Made by a program: the position numbers and the translations under genes
In this document: piece by piece, positions 3,920-14,572 of the stretch
Layout: every line of letters begins with the position of its first letter
How positions within the stretch are numbered: position 1 is the first letter of the stretch
Assembly (NCBI GenBank): GCA_964429235.1
Contig: CAYSAQ010000001.1
Location: 266,045-330,044 of the forward strand
DNA: 64,000 nt
Reading direction: 5' to 3'
DNA from: an uncultured Candidatus Marinamargulisbacteria bacterium
Lineage (GTDB): Bacteria > Margulisbacteria > Riflemargulisbacteria > GWF2-35-9 > DYQY01
Notes under the pieces: generated by a model
What the model saw: only the letters and a program-made list of their open reading frames with translations
Databases searched by the model: none
Told to the model about the DNA's origin: nothing

Positions 3920-4627
3920 TTAATTTGATAATACCCTAAACTCTAAGTCTTGTTTAATCTTTTTCCAATCAGGAAGCTTTTTTGAAAGCAAGTCATAGAA
4001 CTTTCTATCATGTTTAGAATGAGAAACATGGCATAATTCGTGAATCATTACATAATCAATTTGCTGCCTCGTTGCTTTAATAAGGTTTGGATTTAAAATA
4101 ATAGTATTGCTTCGTAAGTAACTGCCCCAACGTTTATTTAGCTTCCGAATCTTTAATAAAGGCAAATGGTCATATTCAAATAACTTAAAACATATTTCCA
4201 ACCGTTCTTGAAACTTTTGCTCTGTTTTTTTCCTAAACCATTTAGTTAAAAGATTTTTAGTTCTTATACTGTCTTTGGAGTACTTAGAATGAACATTAAT
4301 CCTGCCCATTGAAAGAGAAACATATTCTTTATAATCAGCTTGACCAACATTCAATTTGTACTGTCTGCCTAAATACAAAAAGCTCTCACCGCTAACATAT
4401 TCCTTCTCTAACTGTGACGAAAACTGTAAAAAATATCTACGTTGTTTAAGAATCCAAATAGACTTTCGTTTTAAAAAATCATATATTTTCTGCTCATTAT
4501 CAGTACTTGGTACTTTCACAATAATATTACAATTAGGAAAAACAGTAGCAGTAATTGTCTTACGGTTCTCTTCTAGTAATGAGTAATCAAAAGAAATGTT
4601 CTCATATACAAAAGTCTTGTTAATCAT
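3920..4627 (-). CDS. YgjP/DUF45-like zinc hydrolase (annotated in databases as M48-family metallopeptidase), linked to hsdR
   Basis: 235 aa with C-terminal YVMIHELCHVSHSKHDRKFYDLL (HExxH). Its ATG overlaps the hsdR stop by 4 nt (4624-4627). Confidence 0.75.
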   Translation of the reverse strand: MINKTFVYENISFDYSLLEENRKTITATVFPNCNIIVKVPSTDNEQKIYDFLKRKSIWILKQRRYFLQFSSQLEKEYVSGESFLYLGRQYKLNVGQADYKEYVSLSMGRINVHSKYSKDSIRTKNLLTKWFRKKTEQKFQERLEICFKLFEYDHLPLLKIRKLNKRWGSYLRSNTIILNPNLIKATRQQIDYVMIHELCHVSHSKHDRKFYDLLSKKLPDWKKIKQDLEFRVLSN

Positions 4628-7600
4628 TTATTCTTTATTTCCAAATTCCAAGCATCAGAAACAATACGGTCAATATCTTCAACTTTAAAAGGAATATTAT
4701 ATTCATCCCTAACAACATCAAATAAATAATCCTCTAAATCATTCCTTACTTCTCTTTCTACTTCTATGTTGCTATACCAATCAACGATCTTCTTATCATT
4801 TATCATTTTATGAAGCTCTGTAGTTATAACAGACAAAGAGTCGTCAGAGACATTGTATGTTTCCATATACTTCTTCATACTTCTAAACAATGGATGTAAT
4901 TCTTTCTTGTCTTTTATATCAGAAGGGATGTCACTATCCTCATAGTCTTTAACTTTCTGCTGATAGTTCTTAGCCTGACCTAGCAAAGCCAATAAGTCTT
5001 CTGTTTTAGCCACTCTTAACTGTGCAATAAGCTCTTTAACTTTATCTCCAAACTTTTTATAAAAATCAGGATCTTTATCCCAGTTCTCCTTAATTGTTTT
5101 CTCTGTTTGCGCTGCAATAGCTTCTGCCTTTGATTTATCCGACAATCCATTCTGATCATCCTCAATAAACTGATTGAATTCTAGTGCATCTGATAAATTA
5201 ATTGGCTTAGAAAGAATTGATACATCCTCAGACACTACATATTTATTCAAAATTCTCCTTATCTGGTCTTCGTATTTTGAAAAATCTATTATTTCTGCAT
5301 GCATTGCTTTAACTATTTTTTTAATCTCAATAAAACGTTTCAAATCAAGCACATAACGTTTCATTTTTGCATCATCAAACTTTTCAAAAAAATCTGGCAA
5401 TCCTCTACATACAGCGAAGTTCTTAATAAATGAATTAACTAGTTCATAATAACGTTCACGTTTCTCTATATCACCAGACACTTTATTTATATATTCTTGT
5501 GAATCTTTCCTGTTTTTAACATCATTAAACATTGAATGAAGATGCTGATAAACACTTTCTAAATCTGAAATCTTTTCATCAGTATCTATTAATGCTCTAT
5601 TAATATCCTCTATATCATAATTAGAAAATAATTCTAGTGCATACCTAAGATTTTTAGCATTCTTAGAGTAATCTATAATAATCCCATTAGTCTTAGACTC
5701 TTTAGCATTGTCACCATTAAAAAGCCTATTTACCCTTGCTATAGCTTGTAAAAGATTATGCTCCTTTAATTCCTTAGCAAGATATAGGAAGGTATTACGT
5801 GGAGCATCAAATCCTGTTAATAATTTATCTACTACAATAATAATCTTGCAACCGTCTGGATTGTCTTTAAAATCTTTAATAATAGATTTTTCTCTAATCT
5901 CTAAGGAATACCCGTGCTTATGCTTTTCTTTATCCAAAAATTCTGCAACAAGCTTCTTATGCTCTGGCAACTTATCGTCTGCAACATCATCTAAACTATT
6001 GTCAGATATAATCACATTGGAGTCATGAAAGCCAGCTAGCTTAAATGCTTCTTGAAATAAAACTGCTGCATATTTGGAGGGAGCAACAACCTGGGCCTTA
6101 AGGCCTGTATCTTTAAACTCTTCATAATGGTCCAAAATATCAGAAGCGATAAACTCTATTCGTTGAGAATTCTGTTCAATAATCTTTGAACTTGTAAACT
6201 TCTTCTCCAAATCTTTTCGTTGTTCTTCTGTTAAATCTTTTGTTGCTCTATCATAAAATTTATCGAGGATGCTTTGTTGCACTGATTGCTCTACAAATCT
6301 TGCTTGATATATTAATGGCAATACAGCGCCATCTTCTTCTGCCTCTGAAATTGTATAAGAATCTATTAAACCCCTAAACTTACTAACACTCTCCTTATCC
6401 TTCTTCATTAATGGTGTACCTGTAAATGCTATCTGACATGAATTAGGCAATGTCCTATTCAGCTCTATATTTGCTAAACCACCTTGGGTTCTATGAGCTT
6501 CATCTATTAAAACAAATACATTTGGATCAGTATCAGTAAAATCTCTGAACTCTTTTGATGACTCAAACTTATGAACCAGAGTTGTAATAACTCTCAAATC
6601 CTTTTCTTTGATTAATTTCAATAGCTCTTTACCATTATTTGCTTGAATAACACCTTTTTTCACATTACATGCTTCAAAAGTATCTCTGATTTGTTTATCA
6701 AGGTCTTTTCTATCTGTAACAACAACAATACGAGGTAACTCGATAGAATCCTGCTCAATAATAGCTTTAACTAGCATAACCATTGTAAGCGATTTCCCAG
6801 AACCCTGAGTATGCCATACTAGTCCACCATTTCGTCTGCCATTTTCTTTTATATCAGAAACTCTTTTAATGATTTTCTTTATAGCAAAATACTGTTGATA
6901 ACGAGCTATCTTCTTAACATTTGCATCATAGATAACAAAACCATGAACAAGCTCTAAAAGTCGCTCTGGTCGCAACAAACTATAAATACCATTATCCTGT
7001 TCTGAGATTGCTCTATCACCTACATAAGCGTCTCTTCTTAATAAATCATGATTTACTATAGTTATATCTTCTTGTTTTGAGTGGACATCAATACTCTCAT
7101 ACACAACACCATCATACTCATCTTTATCAGCACCTTTTTCTTTCCATACAGCCCAAAATTCAAATGGAGTATTCATAGTTGCATACTTAATCTCTCGAAC
7201 ATTGCAGGCAACTAACACCTGTGGGAATAAAAAGAACTTTGGTGTTTGTTCTTTTCCTTGGTTACGAATCATCTGAGTAACAGCATCAGTTACTGGCACT
7301 GAAGACTTCTTGTTCTCTATAACAGCAAAGGGGATCCCGTTAACAAACAGAACGATATCAGGTCTACGGTTATGAACCTCATCCAATTCATACTCAGCAC
7401 AAACATGGAACTTGTTATTATTAGGTGTTTCAAAATCTATAAACCTCAACTGAGGATGCACATTCTTACCGTTAATTATCTCTGACACGCCAACACCAGA
7501 TATTATCTTCGAAAAAATGTCTTCTGAGGCCTTAACTACCCCGTCAGACATATTAATATTTTCTAACTCGAATATTTGCTCTCTTATGCTTTTATCTGAT

Positions 7601-7806
7601 ACTTCTAAAGAATTAATCTTACGTACTGCTTCAAATGCGATATCTTGGAATATATATTTTGATTTGCTTTCCCTAATTCGATTTACTTCTGCTCTAGGAA
7701 TGTATTCATATCCTAAATTAATTAATTGCAATATTGCAGGTATTTGAGAATTTGAAGCCTCATCAAAATCAGGCAAATCGTAGTCATTTTCAAAATATTC
7801 AGACAT
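4624..7806 (-). CDS. hsdR: Type I restriction endonuclease subunit R
   Basis: 1060 aa with SF2 helicase motifs HTQGSGKSLTM (Walker A), LIDEAHRTQ (DEAH) and LLTGFDAP. It sits in a locus with hsdM and hsdS. Confidence 0.93.
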   Translation of the reverse strand: MSEYFENDYDLPDFDEASNSQIPAILQLINLGYEYIPRAEVNRIRESKSKYIFQDIAFEAVRKINSLEVSDKSIREQIFELENINMSDGVVKASEDIFSKIISGVGVSEIINGKNVHPQLRFIDFETPNNNKFHVCAEYELDEVHNRRPDIVLFVNGIPFAVIENKKSSVPVTDAVTQMIRNQGKEQTPKFFLFPQVLVACNVREIKYATMNTPFEFWAVWKEKGADKDEYDGVVYESIDVHSKQEDITIVNHDLLRRDAYVGDRAISEQDNGIYSLLRPERLLELVHGFVIYDANVKKIARYQQYFAIKKIIKRVSDIKENGRRNGGLVWHTQGSGKSLTMVMLVKAIIEQDSIELPRIVVVTDRKDLDKQIRDTFEACNVKKGVIQANNGKELLKLIKEKDLRVITTLVHKFESSKEFRDFTDTDPNVFVLIDEAHRTQGGLANIELNRTLPNSCQIAFTGTPLMKKDKESVSKFRGLIDSYTISEAEEDGAVLPLIYQARFVEQSVQQSILDKFYDRATKDLTEEQRKDLEKKFTSSKIIEQNSQRIEFIASDILDHYEEFKDTGLKAQVVAPSKYAAVLFQEAFKLAGFHDSNVIISDNSLDDVADDKLPEHKKLVAEFLDKEKHKHGYSLEIREKSIIKDFKDNPDGCKIIIVVDKLLTGFDAPRNTFLYLAKELKEHNLLQAIARVNRLFNGDNAKESKTNGIIIDYSKNAKNLRYALELFSNYDIEDINRALIDTDEKISDLESVYQHLHSMFNDVKNRKDSQEYINKVSGDIEKRERYYELVNSFIKNFAVCRGLPDFFEKFDDAKMKRYVLDLKRFIEIKKIVKAMHAEIIDFSKYEDQIRRILNKYVVSEDVSILSKPINLSDALEFNQFIEDDQNGLSDKSKAEAIAAQTEKTIKENWDKDPDFYKKFGDKVKELIAQLRVAKTEDLLALLGQAKNYQQKVKDYEDSDIPSDIKDKKELHPLFRSMKKYMETYNVSDDSLSVITTELHKMINDKKIVDWYSNIEVEREVRNDLEDYLFDVVRDEYNIPFKVEDIDRIVSDAWNLEIKNK

Positions 7807-7810
7807 TGTT

Positions 7811-8656
7811 TTATTCCTTTAATCCTTTAATTTTACTTGTAGCAATTTTCTTTTCTTGAGATTTAACTCGTCTTTCTAACTTCTTTATATCTTCTTCTGG
7901 TAGTAGTTTTTCAGGGATTATACCTCTTTTTATCAAAAGATCTCTTACGTCATGATTGTTTTGAATATGCTCATTTGTTATTTCATGTTCACCATATAGA
8001 TCATCTTTTTTTACATTAAAATTTGTAATTTCTGTAGCAAGGTTTTTTGCAGTTATCGTTACTGTTGGTAAGAAGTCAGCTAGTGGTCTACCTTTAGGAA
8101 TATCCAGCTTATTTTTCATTGCTTGCGTATTCTTTCCACCAAAAAGAATGGAATCACCTTTTGACCTGATTCTGCCAAAACCTTTTTCATCTACACCACG
8201 CTCATAAATATTCTTTGATAACTCTGTTTCAGATGTTGTAAGTTTTTTTCTTGCATCAAGTCTTTCATTTAACTTTAATCGTTCTTCTATGATTTCCTGC
8301 TTTCTTGTTTGAATTGCAAAATAACTTTGGGCAAAAGCGATTACAGGTTTTGCCGAGTCTCCATTCATAGCAATTAAATAACACGCATAACGGGTAAACA
8401 TAACATCTTTTATCTCTCTTTTTGCTCCTGATCCTAAATCTACCATTTTGTTGACCTCAACAAAATGGTCTAATGGGTCCTGCTTACTATTAACACAAGC
8501 CTCAATAGCCTTATCTATAACTTTTATAAAGTTTCTCCACTCCGCATACTCAAGCAGCTCTTGTATATCTCTAGCAAACCAAAACTCAACTCCATTGTCT
8601 TCAAACATATAATCATTAAATGATTTATACATTCTCGCTATTTTCATTTTCTCCAT
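7811..8656 (-). CDS. dinD: DNA damage-inducible protein D (DinD)-like protein
   Basis: 281 aa. By eye it resembles my recollection of E. coli DinD over most of its length (FARDIQELLEYAEWRNF, FTRYACYLIAMNGDSAKPVIAFAQSYFAIQTRKQE). Only 4 nt separate it from the hsdR start. Confidence 0.7.
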   Translation of the reverse strand: MEKMKIARMYKSFNDYMFEDNGVEFWFARDIQELLEYAEWRNFIKVIDKAIEACVNSKQDPLDHFVEVNKMVDLGSGAKREIKDVMFTRYACYLIAMNGDSAKPVIAFAQSYFAIQTRKQEIIEERLKLNERLDARKKLTTSETELSKNIYERGVDEKGFGRIRSKGDSILFGGKNTQAMKNKLDIPKGRPLADFLPTVTITAKNLATEITNFNVKKDDLYGEHEITNEHIQNNHDVRDLLIKRGIIPEKLLPEEDIKKLERRVKSQEKKIATSKIKGLKE

Positions 8657-8678
8657 AACTAACTCCTTTCATAACCAT

Positions 8679-9827
8679 TTAATTATCTGCGTTTCTAAAC
8701 TCTTGCATTCTAATCTCACCAGTTACTAGTTTGTTTAATAAAAATTTCTTTTGTTTTTGTGTTTTTTTTAATTTTTGTTCGTATAGGTCTATTTCTTCAT
8801 CTGCATCTGTGAGAACTTGAGCGATGGCTTTTTGCTCCATTAAACAAGGTATCTTAATTTTCATATCAGCTATCATTTCCATACGAACTGAATCTACAGA
8901 ACCTTTAGCACTCATAGAAAAAACCCTTTTAGGAAATTTACTTTTAAAAATAAAGAAAAACCATTTACCACATACATCAACATCAAAACTATGAATATTA
9001 TATACTCTTTGATGATAATCAAACTTACCATTTATGTAATGGAAAATTTTACCGACACCAACACCATCTCCAGAAGTTATTACTGCCTCTCCGTCAAAGG
9101 AATATGAATTAATTCTTTCAATTGTCTGAGACCTTACAAAAAATGGATATAAACCATCATCAATTTTATTTTGAGTATCTTTAGCGCCAGTACAAATAGA
9201 AGAAAATTCTTTTATTCTTTTTTCTTCCCACTCTCCACTAAACCCCTTCAACCTAGTCTTACCAGTTAGCAACTGTTGCATTAGTCCTTTTTTTCGATCT
9301 TTCAATAAATCTATTTTTTTAGTTAATAAATCGATGCCTTCATCGAAGTTGGTGAGGACTTGGGCAATGGCTTTTTGTTCAGGTAATGGGGGCATACAAA
9401 ATTTAAGTTTTTTAATATCTGAACTGTTAACAGCTGTAAATGTTGAACCTTGTTCATATTTCTTCCATCTTAATTCATATCGCAATAAATACTGATATAT
9501 ATAACTCTGGTTACTTTTTGTTGCTCTAATTGCACAAACCCCTCTACCAATACATGCATTATGTATCGATAATGCGATATCCCCAACTGGTGCTCGAACA
9601 CTCATTAATATATCATTGGGATTACATGTTTTAGTAATTTCTGTAGTCCATTGTCGAGGTGCAGACAATCGATTATTCATATCAGTGTTTCCTTGAATTA
9701 ATGGCGTTCCGTTACCCTCTGTATTATATGACGATGATAATGGTGATTGCCCCATAATTATTAAGCATACATCATTTAATAATACGTCTTTCCAACCTTT
9801 AGGGATTTGGTTGTTAGGTTTTGTCAT
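8679..9827 (-). CDS. hsdS: Type I restriction-modification specificity subunit S (two target-recognition domains)
   Basis: 382 aa with two variable halves. Each half is followed by a conserved helix repeat: LPEQKAIAQVLTNFDEGIDLL...LLTGKTRL and LMEQKAIAQVLTDADEEIDLY...LVTGEIRM. Confidence 0.9.
   Translation of the reverse strand: MTKPNNQIPKGWKDVLLNDVCLIIMGQSPLSSSYNTEGNGTPLIQGNTDMNNRLSAPRQWTTEITKTCNPNDILMSVRAPVGDIALSIHNACIGRGVCAIRATKSNQSYIYQYLLRYELRWKKYEQGSTFTAVNSSDIKKLKFCMPPLPEQKAIAQVLTNFDEGIDLLTKKIDLLKDRKKGLMQQLLTGKTRLKGFSGEWEEKRIKEFSSICTGAKDTQNKIDDGLYPFFVRSQTIERINSYSFDGEAVITSGDGVGVGKIFHYINGKFDYHQRVYNIHSFDVDVCGKWFFFIFKSKFPKRVFSMSAKGSVDSVRMEMIADMKIKIPCLMEQKAIAQVLTDADEEIDLYEQKLKKTQKQKKFLLNKLVTGEIRMQEFRNADN
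8809..8837. repeat. hsdS conserved-region direct repeat, copy 1
   Basis: gtgagaacttgagcgatggctttttgctc matches 9352..9380 at 25 of 29 nt. It encodes the (E)QKAIAQVL helix after TRD2. Confidence 0.7.
9352..9380. repeat. hsdS conserved-region direct repeat, copy 2
   Basis: gtgaggacttgggcaatggctttttgttc matches 8809..8837 at 25 of 29 nt. It encodes the EQKAIAQVL helix after TRD1. Confidence 0.7.
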
Positions 9828-10677
9828 TAGGTGGTGTCTCCTTAATGTTTCGATTATTTTTTATTCTTTTATATTCTTGATAAATAGTTTGTTTTATTAT
9901 TATTTCAAAATCAAATCCTTTTACATTATATGAATCAATAGCTTCTATCGTTAAATCAAAAATTTCTCCTGAACTTATAAATAAATTGCGAACAGTACGA
10001 GTCATAAAATATGATAATTCTTTATATTCATCTTTTTGAACTGCAGATATTTCTTTGTTATGCCTAGTTTCTTTTACGCTTTCATTTATTCCCAGTGCAT
10101 ATTCCTTAATAATTATAAAAGCTTGTACGAATTCCCCCCACTTAATAAATAAATTTTTTTGTTTAGAATACTTTGATTTACAATAATCATTTAATAAAAC
10201 AATATGCTCTGGCATTAGTTCTTTAATTTCTAAAATCGCTAAGCCCAAAGGTCTATCCTGGTTTATTCTTTCATCATCAACTTGTTTTAATCGATATATA
10301 ATTGATAGATTATAATATGCAATACTGTAAGCTTCTTGTAGTTTATTAAATTTCATCTTTTTCTTTTGTTGTTCCTTAAACCATGTTTCAAGAAGGAAAA
10401 CAATAAGACCTACTATTAGTCCTGTTAGTATACCTGGAGCATAATCTTTCCAGAAAGATACTTTGGAGTCAATAATAATAGGATATGCATGATTTCCTTG
10501 TTGCAATGTGATTGTTTCTTTTTTTGTATATGCAACTAGTTCATTAAGTGTTGAGGAATGAACAGTTAATGCTACGTTAACTGTAGGGTTATTTAAAGAA
10601 ACATATATTTGATTATTAATAGTGGCAATATTAGTTGTTGGCATTAGGTTGATTCCTTTAAAGGGATTAGCCCCCAT
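9814..10677 (-). CDS. hypothetical single-pass membrane protein, no recognisable family
   Basis: 287-aa ORF with one strongly hydrophobic segment, APGILTGLIVGLIVFLLETWF, near residue 80-100. An alternative ATG at 10644 shares a base with the TIR stop (TAATG). The 3' end overlaps the hsdS ATG by 14 nt. Confidence 0.6.
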   Translation of the reverse strand: MGANPFKGINLMPTTNIATINNQIYVSLNNPTVNVALTVHSSTLNELVAYTKKETITLQQGNHAYPIIIDSKVSFWKDYAPGILTGLIVGLIVFLLETWFKEQQKKKMKFNKLQEAYSIAYYNLSIIYRLKQVDDERINQDRPLGLAILEIKELMPEHIVLLNDYCKSKYSKQKNLFIKWGEFVQAFIIIKEYALGINESVKETRHNKEISAVQKDEYKELSYFMTRTVRNLFISSGEIFDLTIEAIDSYNVKGFDFEIIIKQTIYQEYKRIKNNRNIKETPPNDKT

Positions 10678-11438
10678 TGACCTCGTTGTTTTTCATGCAT
10701 TACTCCTATGAATTTAATATCAATATCTTTTTTCTTGGTTATTTCTGCTACAAAAGGGAATCCAGGAACTGTAGCAGCGCCTATAGACATTGTTTGTCCA
10801 TTAAATATTTTGCCATTGTTCAATTTTATTCCTTCATTAAAACCACCCATAAACATAACCTGACTAATACATTTAAACTTTAATTCACCTTTAGTATTAT
10901 TTACTAATAATAAATAGTTAGAAATCGGCTCCATATAATGAATCGCCTTACATTCTATAATTAATTTATTATCTAGTTTTTTCACTTCAGCTATTAAGTT
11001 ATGAAATTCAGCTGGTTGCCGATATGTGTTTTCTCCAGAAATAACATCAATAAGTTGTCTAAGAGTGACTTCTAGTCCATCTTGAAATAAATTTATCCAT
11101 AATGTCTGTAATAATACTGGTGGCATTAAGCAATCATCTAATTTTACAGGAATAAATTTAGTTTCTCCTTTTGTAGCTTTTAATATTGCATTTTGCCATT
11201 CAAGTTCAACAAGTTTACTTTGCAGACTATTTTTTGATACAAAAAATATAAAGAATTTACATTTATCAAGTCCTTCATTCATTTTATCGATGACGCCATC
11301 ACCTGGTTGAATTGACCATGAGTCATAGAAAACTTTATCTTGTCCAAACGTATCTTTTAAACGAACAGCTAATTGTTCGATAATAGGTTTATCTTTGTGG
11401 TTATGTGAAAGAAAGATCACTTCAAAAAATCCTCCCAA
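10644..11438 (-). CDS. TIR-domain protein with unassigned ~130-aa C-terminal domain
   Basis: N-terminus VIFLSHNHKDKPIIEQL...KFFIFFVSKNSLQSKLVELEWQNAI fits the bacterial TIR pattern. The ORF-track start at 11438 is TTG. A GTG at 11420, with GGGAGGA upstream, overlaps the Abi stop as GTGA. Confidence 0.75.
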   Translation of the reverse strand: MGGFFEVIFLSHNHKDKPIIEQLAVRLKDTFGQDKVFYDSWSIQPGDGVIDKMNEGLDKCKFFIFFVSKNSLQSKLVELEWQNAILKATKGETKFIPVKLDDCLMPPVLLQTLWINLFQDGLEVTLRQLIDVISGENTYRQPAEFHNLIAEVKKLDNKLIIECKAIHYMEPISNYLLLVNNTKGELKFKCISQVMFMGGFNEGIKLNNGKIFNGQTMSIGAATVPGFPFVAEITKKKDIDIKFIGVMHEKQRGQWGLIPLKEST

Positions 11439-12331
11439 TTAGTAGGGAATCCATATGCGCCCAGTTCAATGCTTGGGAATTCATTAGCCAATTCATTTAA
11501 TCTATATTTCCATTTGCTTTGTGAAGCAATTTCTTGCATAAAATAATTACAAATCATAATAATACTAAAAACTTTTTGATTTGAAACAGTAGTTGGATTA
11601 TGCCATTTTGGAAATTTGTTTTTTGCAGGAATTAAAGGCTTATAACCAAGCACCCTATTAAAAAGTATTGAATGGTGAGCACAAATGTTTCTCATCGAAT
11701 GTAATGATCTAATCCAAGATAAAAGCAATTTATCAGCTATTTTATAATGCGAAGCTATTTTTTTTATTAGCTCATCGGGCAATCCTTTAAACAAGGTATG
11801 TGTTGTTCCAAATGAAACTATTTCTATAAGTATCCATATTGGTAAGTCATTATGTTTCCGCCCATATTTATTAAAGAAATTTACAACAAAGTTTTCTTTA
11901 GATTTACTTGATTTCCCTCTTTTTCTAAATGTTTCTTTTCGAATCCCTTTGATTAGGTTCTTATACTCTTTACTTGTTAGGTTAGGAAAGTTGCTTTTCT
12001 TTAAATAGCCAAATGTTCCACATTTCTCAGCAAAAAGGTATACTACTTGTGTCCTGAAAGAAATCTCAATCCTTTCAATAGCCTCTAGTAATATAATCCT
12101 GAGTCTACGATCAAATTTGTATAAGTCCCAGATTTTTTCTAAAGTTATATCTGATAGGAAGTTTTCAGAATTTTTTTGTCTAAAAGGATAGAGATACCCA
12201 GTAAATCTATAATAATTAACTGACTGTAAAACTTTAACCAGCTTTCCCTTATCAGCTATCAATCCTCTGGAAATTAATTTATTAGCTTGATCCTCAAAAG
12301 ATATCCATTGCTTGTTATATTGCATAGACAT
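11417..12331 (-). CDS. Abi_2 / AbiD-AbiF-like abortive infection family protein
   Basis: 304 aa. N-terminal ISFEDQANKLISRGL..., SVNYYRFTGYLYPF and NICAHHSILFNR are hallmarks of Abi-like (Abi_2) proteins. The likely true start is the third codon (ATG at 12325), given the AGGGGA spacing. Confidence 0.75.
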   Translation of the reverse strand: MSMQYNKQWISFEDQANKLISRGLIADKGKLVKVLQSVNYYRFTGYLYPFRQKNSENFLSDITLEKIWDLYKFDRRLRIILLEAIERIEISFRTQVVYLFAEKCGTFGYLKKSNFPNLTSKEYKNLIKGIRKETFRKRGKSSKSKENFVVNFFNKYGRKHNDLPIWILIEIVSFGTTHTLFKGLPDELIKKIASHYKIADKLLLSWIRSLHSMRNICAHHSILFNRVLGYKPLIPAKNKFPKWHNPTTVSNQKVFSIIMICNYFMQEIASQSKWKYRLNELANEFPSIELGAYGFPTNWEDFLK

Positions 12332-12460: not shown

Positions 12461-13960
12461 CTATCCCAATATCTCTTCTAAATGCTTCTTCATCTTTTTT
12501 TCAGCAACTACAAGCTGTTTATCAATTTCAACAAGCTCTTTTTGAACTTTTGTAATATCTATCTCTTCTTCTTCCTCAAAAGTATCCACAAAACGAGTTA
12601 TATTTAAATTATAGTCGTTTTCTTCTATTTCTTTGTAATTAACAACCCTAGCGAATTTCTCTACATCTTCTCGTTTTTCATAAGTATCAAGAATCTTCTT
12701 AATATTTTTTGGTTCAAGCTTATTCTGAGCTTTTTCTGATTTAAACTCTTTTGATGCTTCAATAAAGAATATATCTTTCTTGTTTTCATTAGCACCACCA
12801 ACTTCTCGAGACTTATCTATAATCAATATAGCAACAGGTATACCTGTAGTTTGAAAAAGACCTGCTGGCAAACCAATAACAGTATCAATAATATTTTCTT
12901 CTAAAAGCTGTTTTCTTATCTTTCCTTCTGCGCCACCTCTAAACAAAACACCATGAGGAACAATCACAACAACTTTTCCTTCTTTTGCTTTTGCTGTCTC
13001 TATCATATGACTGATAAAGGCATAATCACCTTTATCTTTTGGCGCTATGCCTCTGTGAAATCTATTATATGGATCATTTTCAGCATTTTCAGCACCCCAT
13101 TTTTTTAAACTAAATGGTGGATTTGCCACTACTAAGTCAAACTTCATTAATCTATCGTCTTCTATTAGTAATGGGTGGTTTAATGTGTCACCCCACTCTA
13201 ACCTTGCCGAATCCTTACCGTGCAGAAACATATTCATTCTTGCTAAATTATAAGTAGTTCCTATCTTTTCTTGACCATATAGTGCATAGTTATTTGAACC
13301 AACTTCATCACCTGCTAATAGTAAGAGACCACCCGACCCCATAGCTGGATCACAAATACGAGAACCCTCTTTAGGTTTTGCTAATTTTGCAACAAGTTCA
13401 GCAACTTCGTGTACTGTAAAAAACTCACCCGCCTTTTTCCCTGCATCAGCACCGAACCGCTCAATCATAAACATATATGCACGACCTATAATATCTTCTT
13501 CTGCCTCACTAAGGTCTATTTTGGCAAAATCACCAATCAAATCACGCAACATTTTATTTCTCTGAGTAGTTTTACCTAGGACTGACTCAGAATTAAAATT
13601 AACTGAATCAAACAATCCTTTTAATCGCTCATTCTTATCTTCTATCTTATGCAAAGCTTTATTAATGATTTCGCCAATATTATCGGCTGACTGTTGCCTG
13701 TATATATCATAAAAACTTGCTCCTTTTGGCAATACAAACCTAAAATTCTTTAACTTCATCGAGATTCTTTCTTCATCACTACCATATCTAGCTTCAAGCT
13801 TTTCTACTTCAACTTTATGAAGGTCACTCATGTATTTATAGAACAAAAAAGTCAACGCATAATCTTTAAAAACTCCACCATCCACAGTTCCCCTAGATGA
13901 ATTTGCAGCATCCCATAAAGTACCGTTCAATACATCTTGTGTATATTTTTTAGTATTCAT
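12461..13960 (-). CDS. hsdM: Type I restriction-modification N6-adenine DNA methyltransferase subunit M
   Basis: 499 aa with the SAM motif DPAMGSGGLLL and the catalytic motif VVANPPFS. An HsdM N-terminal domain is present. Confidence 0.93.
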   Translation of the reverse strand: MNTKKYTQDVLNGTLWDAANSSRGTVDGGVFKDYALTFLFYKYMSDLHKVEVEKLEARYGSDEERISMKLKNFRFVLPKGASFYDIYRQQSADNIGEIINKALHKIEDKNERLKGLFDSVNFNSESVLGKTTQRNKMLRDLIGDFAKIDLSEAEEDIIGRAYMFMIERFGADAGKKAGEFFTVHEVAELVAKLAKPKEGSRICDPAMGSGGLLLLAGDEVGSNNYALYGQEKIGTTYNLARMNMFLHGKDSARLEWGDTLNHPLLIEDDRLMKFDLVVANPPFSLKKWGAENAENDPYNRFHRGIAPKDKGDYAFISHMIETAKAKEGKVVVIVPHGVLFRGGAEGKIRKQLLEENIIDTVIGLPAGLFQTTGIPVAILIIDKSREVGGANENKKDIFFIEASKEFKSEKAQNKLEPKNIKKILDTYEKREDVEKFARVVNYKEIEENDYNLNITRFVDTFEEEEEIDITKVQKELVEIDKQLVVAEKKMKKHLEEILG

Positions 13961-14538
13961 TACTTAGCTCCTTTTCTAATAGTTATATCAATATATTTAT
14001 TAATAATTTGCTGTTCCGTAGCCATCTTCTTTTTAGTCAAAATAAAATAATCCTTAAAGTCATTAAACTTTTCAACAACATCATATTGCTCTTTAAGGGT
14101 AAGTGATGGAATCGTAACATTGGAAATATTAGACTTATTTATAAACGGAATAGTTGTTGTTTCTAGCAAATTCAAAATCTGTTTTTGACCGTCTTTTGAA
14201 TTAAGATATAAACTTACATACTCAGGGTCAAACTGCTGAGAACTAACTCTAATAACAAAAACACCAGAAGTGCATAAATATTGAGCTGAATCCTTATTAC
14301 AAAATATTGAAGAAGTAAATCTTCCCCTATTTGTAATTAGAACATCTTTTCTTTTTAGCATACTTTTCCCACCAGTAGATAATGAGACTTTAATCAAGCC
14401 ATTGTAATCAATACTTGTATCAGTTTTAATATCCCTAGGCTGTATTACAAATGTATTACTATCAACAGAATTCTCGAGTTTCTCCCTAAATGAATGTCCT
14501 AAAAAAATATCAGCTATATCACATAATTTATTTATCAT
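13960..14538 (-). CDS. hsdS: half-size Type I specificity subunit (single target-recognition domain)
   Basis: 192 aa with an HsdS-like start (KLCDIADIFLGHSF), one TRD and one conserved helix (IPSLTLKEQYDVVEKFNDF...). Its stop shares a base with the hsdM ATG (TAATG at 13958-13962). Confidence 0.75.
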   Translation of the reverse strand: MINKLCDIADIFLGHSFREKLENSVDSNTFVIQPRDIKTDTSIDYNGLIKVSLSTGGKSMLKRKDVLITNRGRFTSSIFCNKDSAQYLCTSGVFVIRVSSQQFDPEYVSLYLNSKDGQKQILNLLETTTIPFINKSNISNVTIPSLTLKEQYDVVEKFNDFKDYFILTKKKMATEQQIINKYIDITIRKGAK

Positions 14539-14544
14539 GGCTAA

Positions 14545-14572
14545 ATTATAACAGAACAGTAGATAGTGTCAA
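14545..14572 (-). promoter_or_regulatory. Consensus sigma-70-type promoter for the half-hsdS/hsdM unit, predicted leaderless
   Basis: Minus strand reads TTGACA (14572-14567), a 16-nt spacer, TATAAT (14550-14545), then ttagcc and the ATG at 14538. There is no Shine-Dalgarno sequence. Confidence 0.55.

What the first reader, a model, noticed from the sequence alone, without database searches (positions are those of the whole stretch)
9814..11438. TIR-domain gene coupled to a single-pass membrane-protein gene inside a Type I R-M operon: candidate undescribed Thoeris-like or abortive-infection module
Seen in sequence: ORF 10644..11438 opens with a TIR-like domain (IFLSHNHKDKPIIEQL ... KFFIFFVSKNSLQSKLVELEWQNAI). 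By eye, SKLVELEW aligns with the S-x-W-V-x-x-E glutamate region of TIR NADases. About 130 aa of beta-rich sequence follow (KLIIECKAIHYMEPISNYLLLVNN...GVMHEKQRGQWGLIPL), and I cannot place that region in any family. Its stop shares a base with an ATG of the next ORF (TAATG, 10642-10646); an alternative ATG at 10677 would overlap it by 34 nt. The next ORF (9814..10677) has one hydrophobic helix (APGILTGLIVGLIVFLLETWF). That helix separates an ~80-aa N-terminal region from a ~185-aa charged, helical C-terminal region. I see no SIR2, SLOG, Macro, nuclease or protease motif in it. This gene in turn overlaps the hsdS ATG by 14 nt. Established knowledge: bacterial TIR proteins in Thoeris and related systems consume NAD+ or make NAD-derived signals, and the described Thoeris effectors are SIR2-SLOG or TM-Macro proteins. 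Inference: this may be a TIR sensor or signal generator paired with a membrane-targeting effector, with neither accessory domain of a described type.
Basis: partly seen in the sequence, partly recalled or inferred. Interest (0 to 1): 0.85.

Follow-up and report, generated by a model that had tools for sequence, protein, structure and literature searches.

The report
Stand-alone TIR gene, unrelated membrane neighbour
The TIR gene is real, but it belongs to a widespread family that normally occurs alone, and the membrane-protein gene next to it turns up elsewhere only beside a different defence gene (AbiD), so this is a restriction operon carrying separate defence genes, not a new two-gene TIR signalling system.

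Summary
Both ORFs, the TAATG junction, the TIR domain with its catalytic Glu, an all-beta C-terminal half and a single hydrophobic helix are all present inside a Type I R-M operon.

- **The TIR protein is normally solitary.** It belongs to a conserved ~260-aa family (TIR plus a beta-sandwich domain) found in at least 113 species genomes across many phyla, on two 8-kb Bacillus plasmids and in 23 viral contigs. In 80 genomes examined it has no conserved neighbour and never sits near a homolog of the membrane protein.
- **The membrane protein occurs elsewhere without TIR.** It is almost an orphan. Its only homolog lineage lies in a sister R-M operon directly after AbiD, with a 4-nt overlap and no TIR gene.
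- **A third sister operon pairs the TIR differently.** There a 77%-identical TIR gene is followed by a SIR2-like gene.

Best reading: the hsdM–hsdS gap is a cargo slot holding AbiD, a self-contained TIR sensor-effector and a rare membrane protein of unknown role. Proposing that the TIR protein is an abortive-infection NADase is inference. The TIR family itself appears uncharacterised, which gives the finding moderate interest.

The parts
14545..14572 (-). Perfect sigma-70 consensus promoter-like site (TTGACA-16-TG-TATAAT, 12 of 12 matches) just upstream of the first operon gene
   Evidence: a consensus match only, function not shown
13960..14538 (-). Half-size hsdS (192 aa, one target-recognition domain); first gene of the operon
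   Evidence: Pfam Methylase_S 2.2e-5, PADLOC Specificity_I 2e-16; present in all three operon variants
12461..13960 (-). hsdM, Type I methyltransferase
   Evidence: Pfam N6_Mtase 1e-99 and HsdM_N; PADLOC MTase_I 8e-127; 84-85% identical to hsdM of L089 and L081
11417..12331 (-). AbiD / Abi_2 (HEPN-type abortive-infection protein, RNICAHH motif); first cargo gene
   Evidence: Pfam Abi_2 9.7e-53, PADLOC AbiD 8.4e-71; assignment of the Abi2/AbiD family to HEPN and its embedding in R-M operons from PMC3710099
10644..11420 (-). TIR + beta-sandwich protein, 258 aa from GTG 11420 (the mechanical ORF extends to TTG 11438); second cargo gene
11052..11417 (-). TIR domain (residues 8-129 of the 264-aa ORF)
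   Evidence: Pfam TIR_2 1e-24; Foldseek matches to BtpA, AbTir, PdTIR, SARM1 and SPARTA TIR domains at E about 2e-5
11199..11201 (-). Codon of E80, the predicted catalytic Glu (LEWQNA)
   Evidence: invariant in 68 homologs; aligns with the Glu of the SxW[VC]xxE motif in 9m0n and Cat1
10653..11003 (-). C-terminal all-beta (beta-sandwich) domain, residues ~146-262
9814..10644 (-). Single-pass membrane protein, 276 aa from the ATG in TAATG (alternative ATG at 10677 gives 287 aa); third cargo gene
10378..10440 (-). Gly-rich hydrophobic helix APGILTGLIVGLIVFLLETWF, followed by the Lys-rich stretch KEQQKKKMK
   Evidence: read directly from the sequence; conserved in P0123 as GxxxGLxVGxxxFLLExW
8679..9827 (-). 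Full-size hsdS; its ATG lies 14 nt inside the membrane-protein gene
   Evidence: Pfam Methylase_S 2.5e-42; junction read
7811..8656 (-). DinD-like Bro-N protein, equivalent to PADLOC candidate PDC-S13, embedded between hsdS and hsdR
   Evidence: PADLOC 7.5e-114, NCBIfam DinD 3.4e-107
4624..7806 (-). hsdR, Type I restriction subunit
   Evidence: PADLOC REase_I 1.7e-158
3920..4627 (-). YgjP-like metallopeptidase; last operon gene, overlaps the hsdR stop by 4 nt
   Evidence: Pfam YgjP-like 9.6e-48; conserved in L089 and L081

Best explanation
The gap between hsdM and hsdS in this Type I R-M operon is a cargo slot. In this genome it holds three tightly packed accessory genes that are not one system: AbiD (a HEPN-type Abi protein), a TIR + beta-sandwich protein, and a rare single-pass membrane protein.

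The TIR protein belongs to a widespread, horizontally mobile family that works on its own.

Proposed mechanism (inferred, not shown): the C-terminal beta-sandwich senses an infection cue or drives oligomerisation. The N-terminal TIR domains then assemble through the conserved BB-loop. The invariant Glu cleaves NAD+, which stops the infected cell (abortive infection).

The membrane protein is not the dedicated partner of the TIR protein. Its only other known lineage is translationally coupled to AbiD in a sister operon with no TIR gene. It therefore belongs either with AbiD or with this R-M operon family, and its role is unknown.
For: **Shown**
- TIR fold and catalytic Glu.
- Full-length family conservation at 55-65% identity across Bacteroidota, Bacillota, Pseudomonadota, Desulfobacterota, Spirochaetota and others, and 50% in a Nitrosotalea archaeon.
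- At least 113 species genomes carry a relative. In the best 80, no neighbour family recurs in more than a few loci, hsdM is nearby in only 3, and no homolog of the membrane protein occurs.
- The beta-sandwich domain always accompanies the TIR domain. The only exceptions are 3 disrupted copies.
- The TIR gene is lone cargo on two 8-kb Bacillus plasmids. It also occurs in 23 IMG/VR viral contigs; 9 of these also carry a terminase-small-subunit-like ORF (my reading of its sequence) near the TIR gene.
- An exhaustive phmmer search of 1.84 billion representatives finds only one homolog lineage of the membrane protein. That lineage lies in the order hsdS-half, hsdM, Abi_2, membrane protein, hsdS, with a 4-nt Abi_2/membrane-protein overlap and no TIR.
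- Three operon variants share one backbone (hsdM 82-85%, hsdR 74-76%, DinD 75-84% identity) but carry different cargo.
- The cargo genes have lower GC content and much weaker GC skew than the backbone.

**Context from the literature**
- Type I R-M operons often carry embedded defence genes (10.1101/2024.01.29.577857; PMC11411939).
- Stand-alone TIR proteins are treated as likely NAD+-depleting effectors rather than Thoeris signal generators (10.64898/2025.12.03.692087).
Against: - No experiment exists. NADase activity, abortive infection and the sensing role of the beta-sandwich are all inferred.
- A catalytic Glu does not distinguish NAD+ depletion from signal synthesis.
- In both R-M-embedded cases (the window and L081), the TIR gene is translationally coupled to a downstream gene that looks like an effector (a membrane protein, a SIR2-like protein). 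Thoeris TIR clusters are known to swap effectors.
- Immediate neighbours of the family are only partly defence or mobile genes. Several are housekeeping genes, so defence-island enrichment was not quantified.
- The AbiD/membrane-protein link rests on two lineages in one operon family. AbiD homologs elsewhere lack such a partner.
Confidence: 0.6

Rival explanations
1. This is the first reader's model: a lineage-specific Thoeris-like pair. The TIR protein senses infection and makes an NAD-derived signal. That signal activates the downstream membrane protein, which disrupts the membrane.
For: - The junction shares one base (TAATG), with a Shine-Dalgarno-like AAGGA upstream.
- The catalytic Glu is present.
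- Many predicted Thoeris effectors carry transmembrane helices, and one TIR cluster can pair with different effectors.
- The 77%-identical homolog in L081 is likewise coupled, by a 4-nt overlap, to a SIR2-like gene.
Against: - The TIR family is solitary in 80 genomes, on plasmids and in viral contigs.
- The homolog of the membrane protein occurs without any TIR gene, coupled to AbiD.
- The membrane protein has no recognisable ligand-binding domain or family, and its cytoplasmic C-terminal region is its least conserved part.
- ThsB models match the TIR region only, and weakly (E >= 2.9e-5).
Confidence: 0.1
2. AbiD and the membrane protein form a two-gene abortive-infection module, with a HEPN RNase plus a membrane anchor, sensor or pore. 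The stand-alone TIR gene was inserted between them in this lineage, or was lost in the sister lineage.
For: - Abi_2 followed by the membrane protein, with a 4-nt overlap, occurs in L089-L092.
- Both genes have diverged in parallel to about 30% identity, while the backbone stays at 75-85%.
- Some Abi2-family HEPN domains are fused to a conserved transmembrane helix, which gives a precedent for membrane association (PMC3710099).
Against: - Only two lineages exist, and both are in the same R-M operon family, so shared ancestry could explain the adjacency.
- Among 68 metagenomic AbiD loci with room downstream, 24 have any closely following same-strand ORF, 4 of those have a hydrophobic segment, and none is homologous to the membrane protein.
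- AbiD is regarded as a single-gene system (PADLOC model).
Confidence: 0.25
3. The TIR family is not an immune gene. It could be an NAD-consuming toxin or addiction factor of mobile elements, or a regulatory protein. Alternatively, the membrane-protein ORF is a decaying remnant.
For: - The TIR gene sits on tiny plasmids and in prophage-like contigs.
- Genomic neighbours are heterogeneous and include housekeeping genes.
- 3 of 80 copies are disrupted.
Against: - The family recurs next to or inside R-M genes: the window, L081, L020 (between an SNF2 helicase and a methylase), and L021/L028 (next to Vsr).
- The conserved full-length architecture across phyla argues for selection on function.
- The membrane protein keeps its architecture at 31% identity over its full length, so it is under purifying selection.
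Confidence: 0.1

Closest known systems
Thoeris systems (types I-XI; ThsB TIR plus a signal-activated effector)
   Same: A TIR domain with the catalytic Glu, a defence-locus context, and a downstream translationally coupled gene. Some predicted Thoeris effectors are transmembrane proteins.
   Different: No effector is conserved with this TIR family. The TIR protein carries its own fused beta-sandwich domain. The membrane protein has no SLOG, Macro, SLATT or other known signal-binding domain, and its homolog occurs without TIR. ThsB HMMs match only weakly, over the TIR core.
Single-protein TIR sensor-effector fusions (Cat1 TIR-CARF, TIR-SAVED, TIR-STING, Pycsar/Pucsar TIR effectors)
   Same: An N-terminal TIR followed by a C-terminal domain of ~130 aa. 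Cat1 (263 aa) is the second-best PDB sequence match (8.8e-9, TIR region). In those proteins, NADase activity is switched on by sensor-driven TIR assembly.
   Different: The C-terminal domain here is an all-beta sandwich, not a CARF, SAVED or STING nucleotide-binding fold. No cyclase or CRISPR partner is encoded nearby, so any ligand would have to come from the phage or the host.
Defence genes embedded in Type I R-M operons (PrrC, TgvAB, PADLOC PDC candidates; 'guilt by embedding')
   Same: Cargo genes lie between hsd genes and probably share the operon's transcription. AbiD and the DinD-like PDC-S13 gene in this operon are known embedded families.
   Different: The TIR + beta-sandwich family and the membrane protein match no PADLOC v2.0.0 family over their full length. 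PDC-S66 matches only the TIR core and has the opposite domain order.
AbiD / Abi_2 HEPN abortive-infection proteins
   Same: The upstream gene is a clear member (PADLOC AbiD 8e-71). This family is reported as embedded in R-M operons.
   Different: This describes the neighbouring gene, not the two genes in the finding. A coupled single-pass membrane partner is not a described feature of AbiD.
Bacterial TIR NADases of the AbTir / BtpA (TcpB) / PdTIR type
   Same: These are the best structural matches to the TIR domain (Foldseek E about 2e-5, 20-24% identity).
   Different: In those proteins the TIR domain is C-terminal and follows a coiled-coil. Here it is N-terminal and followed by a beta-sandwich.

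Membership tests
TIR domain superfamily (Pfam TIR_2) | Sequence match above the curated cut-off | tested here: met
   TIR_2 87.8 bits against a cut-off of 28, E=1e-24, residues 8-129
TIR domain superfamily (Pfam TIR_2) | Flavodoxin-like TIR fold | tested here: met
   AF2 model; Foldseek matches to BtpA, AbTir, PdTIR, SARM1 and SPARTA TIR domains with TM-score (target-normalised) 0.6-0.7
Catalytically competent TIR (NADase or cyclase) | Conserved catalytic Glu in the SxW[VC]xxE region | tested here: met
   E80 is invariant in 68 sequences and aligns with the motif Glu of 9m0n and Cat1
Catalytically competent TIR (NADase or cyclase) | NAD+ cleavage or signal synthesis | not testable with these tools
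   Needs an enzymatic assay
Thoeris | TIR (ThsB) gene conserved next to an effector gene | tested here: not met
   No conserved neighbour in 80 genomes; 7 of 73 downstream genes are same-strand within 30 bp, and those examined are unrelated apart from Vsr in two loci
Thoeris | Effector with a signal-binding domain (SLOG, Macro, SLATT, DUF2270 and others) | tested here: not met
   The membrane protein has no Pfam, NCBIfam, PADLOC, PHROG or PDB match
Thoeris | Match to ThsB family models | tested here: inconclusive
   PADLOC ThsB HMMs at E 2.9e-5 to 0.03, TIR core only; NCBIfam ThcB4 at 14 bits against a cut-off of 220
Thoeris | Production of a cADPR-isomer or His-ADPR signal on infection | not testable with these tools
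   Needs LC-MS of infected lysates
PADLOC PDC-S66 | Full-length match and the same domain order | tested here: not met
   Only residues 8-98 match, to profile positions 151-240 of 282, so the TIR domain is C-terminal in PDC-S66
Cat1-like TIR-CARF | C-terminal CARF (Rossmann-like) cOA-binding domain | tested here: not met
Phage holin (Phage_holin_2_1), for the membrane protein | Match above the curated cut-off | tested here: not met
   17.2 bits against a cut-off of 26, covering only the hydrophobic helix
AbiD / Abi_2 (upstream gene 11417-12331) | Family HMM match and the HEPN Rx4H motif | tested here: met
   Pfam 9.7e-53, PADLOC 8.4e-71; RNICAHH is conserved with the L089 homolog
Type I R-M operon (context) | hsdM, hsdS and hsdR all present | tested here: met

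The most novel reading that the evidence does not exclude
AbiD, TIR and the membrane protein act as one integrated cassette inside the R-M operon. The rare membrane protein would be a shared membrane-located sensor or executioner that either AbiD (a HEPN RNase) or the TIR protein can use. Its conserved N-terminal segment is predicted to lie outside the membrane, so it might detect phage adsorption or injection at the envelope. This would link envelope sensing to an NAD-based or RNase-based abortive response, and possibly to restriction.
Probability: 0.08. Interest if true: 0.7.

Novelty: new variant of a known kind. Interest (0 to 1): 0.35.

Why it matters
The lasting result concerns the TIR + beta-sandwich family rather than the proposed pair. 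It is a conserved and phylogenetically very wide family. It is carried by plasmids, prophage-like contigs and R-M islands, and it matched no specific model in the defence or annotation libraries searched here. If it is a self-contained antiphage NADase, its beta-sandwich would be a new type of infection sensor fused to TIR, and it would be easy to test as a single 0.8-kb gene. The three sister operons also give a clean natural example of one Type I R-M backbone exchanging embedded defence cargo. This is a warning that translational coupling inside such slots does not imply a functional pair.

Tried and rejected
**Searches that failed or were unavailable**
- Foldseek against afdb50 was not available on the machine. 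Whether the beta-sandwich occurs with other effector domains could not be tested by structure.
- A word-index homolog search with the C-terminal domain alone returned nothing, not even the identical P0001. This is a tool limitation, and it used the last search of that kind.
With only one homolog, such a model would have been poor.
- The Rfam scan of the window found nothing.
- The membrane-protein profile found nothing in viral contigs.
- The INPHARED phage collection has no TIR homolog.

**Comparisons that gave no specific match**
- BFVD (viral structures) gave no match to the C-terminal domain at E <= 0.001.
- BLASTP of the membrane protein against the L081 downstream SIR2-like protein and the L081 325-aa protein with a central hydrophobic helix showed no similarity.

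**Ideas considered and rejected**
- *The TIR family is generally R-M embedded.* Only 3 of 80 loci have hsdM within 8 kb.
- *AbiD generally has a transmembrane partner.* This is not seen in the 68 AbiD loci with room downstream.
- *A small recombinase is a conserved partner of the TIR gene.* It occurs only on the two Bacillus plasmids. The 9-locus cluster in viral contigs is a terminase-small-subunit-like protein instead.
Full report
**1. Observation**

- The minus strand carries a contiguous gene array from 14538 to 3920. In order it holds:
  - a half-size hsdS (13960-14538);
  - hsdM (12461-13960);
  - an AbiD/Abi_2 gene (11417-12331);
  - the TIR ORF (10644-11438);
  - the membrane-protein ORF (9814-10677);
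  - a full-size hsdS (8679-9827);
  - a DinD-like Bro-N gene, equivalent to PADLOC PDC-S13 (7811-8656);
  - hsdR (4624-7806);
  - a YgjP-like metallopeptidase (3920-4627).
- A perfect sigma-70 consensus promoter-like site lies just upstream of the first gene (14572..14545).
- The junctions are as stated:
  - TIR stop and membrane-protein start share one base (TAATG), and an alternative in-frame ATG exists at 10677;
  - the membrane-protein gene overlaps the hsdS ATG by 14 nt.
- One refinement concerns the TIR start. Public gene calls and the family alignment place it at the GTG at 11420 (258 aa, 'MIFLSHN'). That GTG overlaps the AbiD stop as GTGA and sits behind a GGGAGG Shine-Dalgarno sequence. 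AbiD, TIR, the membrane protein and hsdS are therefore all translationally coupled.

**2. The TIR protein**

*TIR domain.*
- Pfam TIR_2 matches residues 8-129 at E=1e-24.
- The AF2 model (mean pLDDT 80.7) matches bacterial TIR NADases (BtpA/TcpB, AbTir, PdTIR), SARM1 and SPARTA TIR-APAZ by Foldseek at E about 2e-5.
- The closest PDB sequences are a TIR-TPR protein (9m0n, 5e-9) and Cat1, the 263-aa CRISPR-associated TIR-CARF NADase (9mud, 9e-9). In both alignments, E80 of 'SKLVELEWQNA' pairs with the Glu of the SxW[VC]xxE motif.
- The BB-loop region (W41-S-x-Q-P-G-D-G48) is nearly invariant but modelled with low confidence. My own knowledge is that this fits a mobile loop gating assembly-dependent activity.

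*C-terminal half.*
- Modelled alone, it gives pLDDT 90.3 and pTM 0.82 as a ~10-strand all-beta domain.
- BFVD (viral structures) gives nothing at E <= 0.001.
- No sequence library has a family for it.
- It is nevertheless strongly conserved, with C163, E170, N181, T223-x-PGFP and H248-E249 standing out.
- In all loci examined it occurs only together with the TIR domain. The exceptions are three frameshifted copies.

**3. The TIR family is a stand-alone, mobile gene**

- The full-length protein has 891 homolog clusters. The best 120 are all 251-317 aa (nearly all 257-266), cover at least 93% of the query, and are 54-77% identical (one identical). They come from very different phyla.
- A pattern-limited scan of one genome per GTDB species found 113 species with a relative. 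These include Bacteroidota, Bacillota, Pseudomonadota, Spirochaetota, Dehalococcoidia, Gracilibacteria and a Nitrosotalea archaeon.
- I analysed the best 80 loci, each with up to 8 kb of flank on either side.
  - All-against-all clustering of ORFs within 5 kb gave no family shared by more than 9 loci. The two 9-locus clusters are short ORFs, at least some of them antisense within the TIR gene; the next cluster, of ~390-aa proteins in 8 loci, was not identified.
  - Window hsdM homologs occur in 3 loci, and homologs of the window membrane protein in none.
  - Of 73 nearest downstream genes, 7 are same-strand within 30 bp.
  - The tightly adjacent genes examined include DUF1810, a DNA methylase, Vsr (in two loci), Glu-tRNA synthetase, a beta-flower protein and DUF7352.
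  - Pfam and PADLOC scans of the 146 nearest neighbours found no family in more than 3 loci. The hits mix R-M genes, integrases and HTH regulators with housekeeping genes.
- The gene is also lone cargo on two 8-kb Bacillus plasmids.
- It occurs in 23 IMG/VR viral contigs; 9 of these also carry a terminase-small-subunit-like ORF (my reading of its sequence) near the TIR gene.
- It is absent from deposited phage genomes.

**4. The membrane protein**

- It matches no family and no PDB sequence.
- The word-index search found only itself.
- An exhaustive phmmer search over 1.84 billion representatives found one real homolog, P0123 (E=1.4e-13, 31% identity, also 287 aa).
- P0123 has the same layout. 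The conserved N-terminal segment (KKETITLQ..YPI) and the Gly-rich helix (GxxxGLxVGxxxFLLExW) stand out, while the C-terminal ~185 aa is poorly conserved.
- The Lys-rich stretch after the helix suggests that the C-terminus is cytoplasmic (inference from the positive-inside rule).
- Contigs carrying P0123 or its close variant P0126 show this order: hsdS-half, hsdM, Abi_2, membrane protein, hsdS, DUF559, Bro-N, hsdR, YgjP. The Abi_2/membrane-protein overlap is 4 nt, and there is no TIR gene. One of these contigs, L089, comes from the same sample as a contig that carries the window's own locus (L083).

**5. Three variants of one operon**

| Locus | Cargo between hsdM and hsdS |
|---|---|
| Window | AbiD, TIR, membrane protein |
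| L089 | AbiD', membrane protein' |
| L081 | Bro-N, 325-aa protein, 61-aa zinc-ribbon-like protein (weak Pfam hits only), TIR (77% identity), SIR2-like protein (4-nt overlap), GIY-YIG |

- The backbone genes of the window, L089 and L081 are clearly orthologous: hsdM 82-85%, hsdR 74-76%, DinD-like 75-84% and YgjP 53-64% identity (cargo).
- AbiD and the membrane protein are only about 30% identical between the window and L089.
- The window cargo has lower GC content (0.286-0.306) and much weaker GC skew than hsdM and hsdR.
- TIR and the membrane protein are therefore separable in both directions.

**6. Is AbiD plus the membrane protein a general pair?**

A metagenome scan for AbiD relatives returned 80 loci.
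- 68 loci have at least 300 bp of sequence downstream of AbiD.
- 24 of those have a same-strand ORF starting within -40 to +60 nt of the AbiD stop.
- 4 of those ORFs have a hydrophobic segment.
- None is homologous to the membrane protein.

The pairing is therefore specific to this operon family. It may reflect function or only shared ancestry.

**7. Interpretation**

- The slot between hsdM and hsdS behaves like the embedded-gene slots described for Type I R-M, BREX and DISARM systems (10.1101/2024.01.29.577857; TgvAB in PMC11411939; Abi2 embedded in R-M operons in PMC3710099).
- The most economical reading is that the slot holds separate accessory defence genes.
- For the TIR protein I commit to a self-contained sensor-effector mechanism. 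The beta-sandwich senses a cue or drives oligomerisation, TIR domains assemble, and E80-dependent NAD+ cleavage leads to abortive infection.
  - This is inferred from the architectural analogy with Cat1, TIR-SAVED and TIR-STING, and from the practice of treating stand-alone TIR proteins as likely NAD+-depleting effectors (10.64898/2025.12.03.692087).
  - It has not been shown.
- The Thoeris-like pairing cannot be excluded for this single lineage. The same paper documents effector swapping within TIR clusters, and both R-M-embedded TIR copies are coupled to effector-like genes. However, it is contradicted by the family-wide solitary distribution and by the membrane protein occurring without TIR.

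**8. Novelty and score**

- Already known: TIR domains in defence, stand-alone TIR effectors, AbiD, and defence genes embedded in R-M operons.
- Apparently undescribed:
  - the TIR + beta-sandwich family as such. PADLOC v2.0.0, NCBIfam release 20, Pfam and PHROGs have no full-length model, and my literature searches found no characterisation;
  - the orphan membrane protein.
- I rate this a new variant of a known kind, with interest 0.35.

Noticed in passing
window 14545-14572 (- strand): A perfect 12-of-12 sigma-70 consensus promoter with an extended -10 TG sits immediately upstream of the half-size hsdS. No convincing minus-strand terminator lies within the cargo region, so 14538->3920 is probably one transcription unit.
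   Followed up: partly
window 13960-14538 and 8679-9827: The operon has two specificity genes: a half-size, single-TRD hsdS before hsdM and a full-size hsdS after the cargo. Both are conserved in position in the sister operons L089 and L081, and L081 has an integrase fragment upstream. The window hsdS and the L089 hsdS share a 75%-identical TRD placed in opposite halves, which suggests TRD shuffling.
   Followed up: partly
window 7811-8656: A DinD-like Bro-N protein (PADLOC PDC-S13 7.5e-114; NCBIfam DinD 3.4e-107) lies between hsdS and hsdR in all three operon variants. L081 carries a second, divergent copy directly after hsdM.
   Followed up: partly
window 3920-4627: A YgjP-like (WLM/SprT-type) metallopeptidase gene overlaps the hsdR stop by 4 nt. 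It is conserved at this position in L089 and L081 (53-64% identity), so it looks like a fixed accessory of this R-M family.
   Followed up: no
L081 8783-9901 and 9959-10399: In the sister operon, the 77%-identical TIR gene is followed, with a 4-nt overlap, by a 372-aa SIR2-like protein (N-terminal GAGAS motif; partial PADLOC SIR2 hits, best 1.9e-7) and then a GIY-YIG nuclease. TIR plus SIR2 adjacency resembles Thoeris type I, but no SLOG domain was detected.
   Followed up: partly
L012, L056, L067 (around 8000-8800 in each): Three of the 80 genomic copies of the TIR family are split into separate TIR and C-terminal-domain ORFs by a frameshift or stop, so they are probably pseudogenes.
   Followed up: no
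L179-L183, L190, L192-L195 (IMG/VR contigs): Nine of the 23 viral contigs that carry the TIR family also have a terminase-small-subunit-like ORF (my reading of its sequence) within about 1-2 kb of the TIR gene in those checked. This may be a moron-type position in prophages.
   Followed up: partly
L020 3239-8553: In a Prevotella MAG, the TIR family gene is wedged between an SNF2-type helicase and a DNA methylase (-16 and +3 nt gaps). This is a second, independent case of embedding in an R-M-like operon.
   Followed up: no
window 9500-12300: The three cargo genes have lower GC content (0.286-0.306) and much weaker GC skew (-0.05 to -0.14) than the flanking hsdM and hsdR (-0.2 to -0.32), consistent with a foreign origin.
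   Followed up: partly
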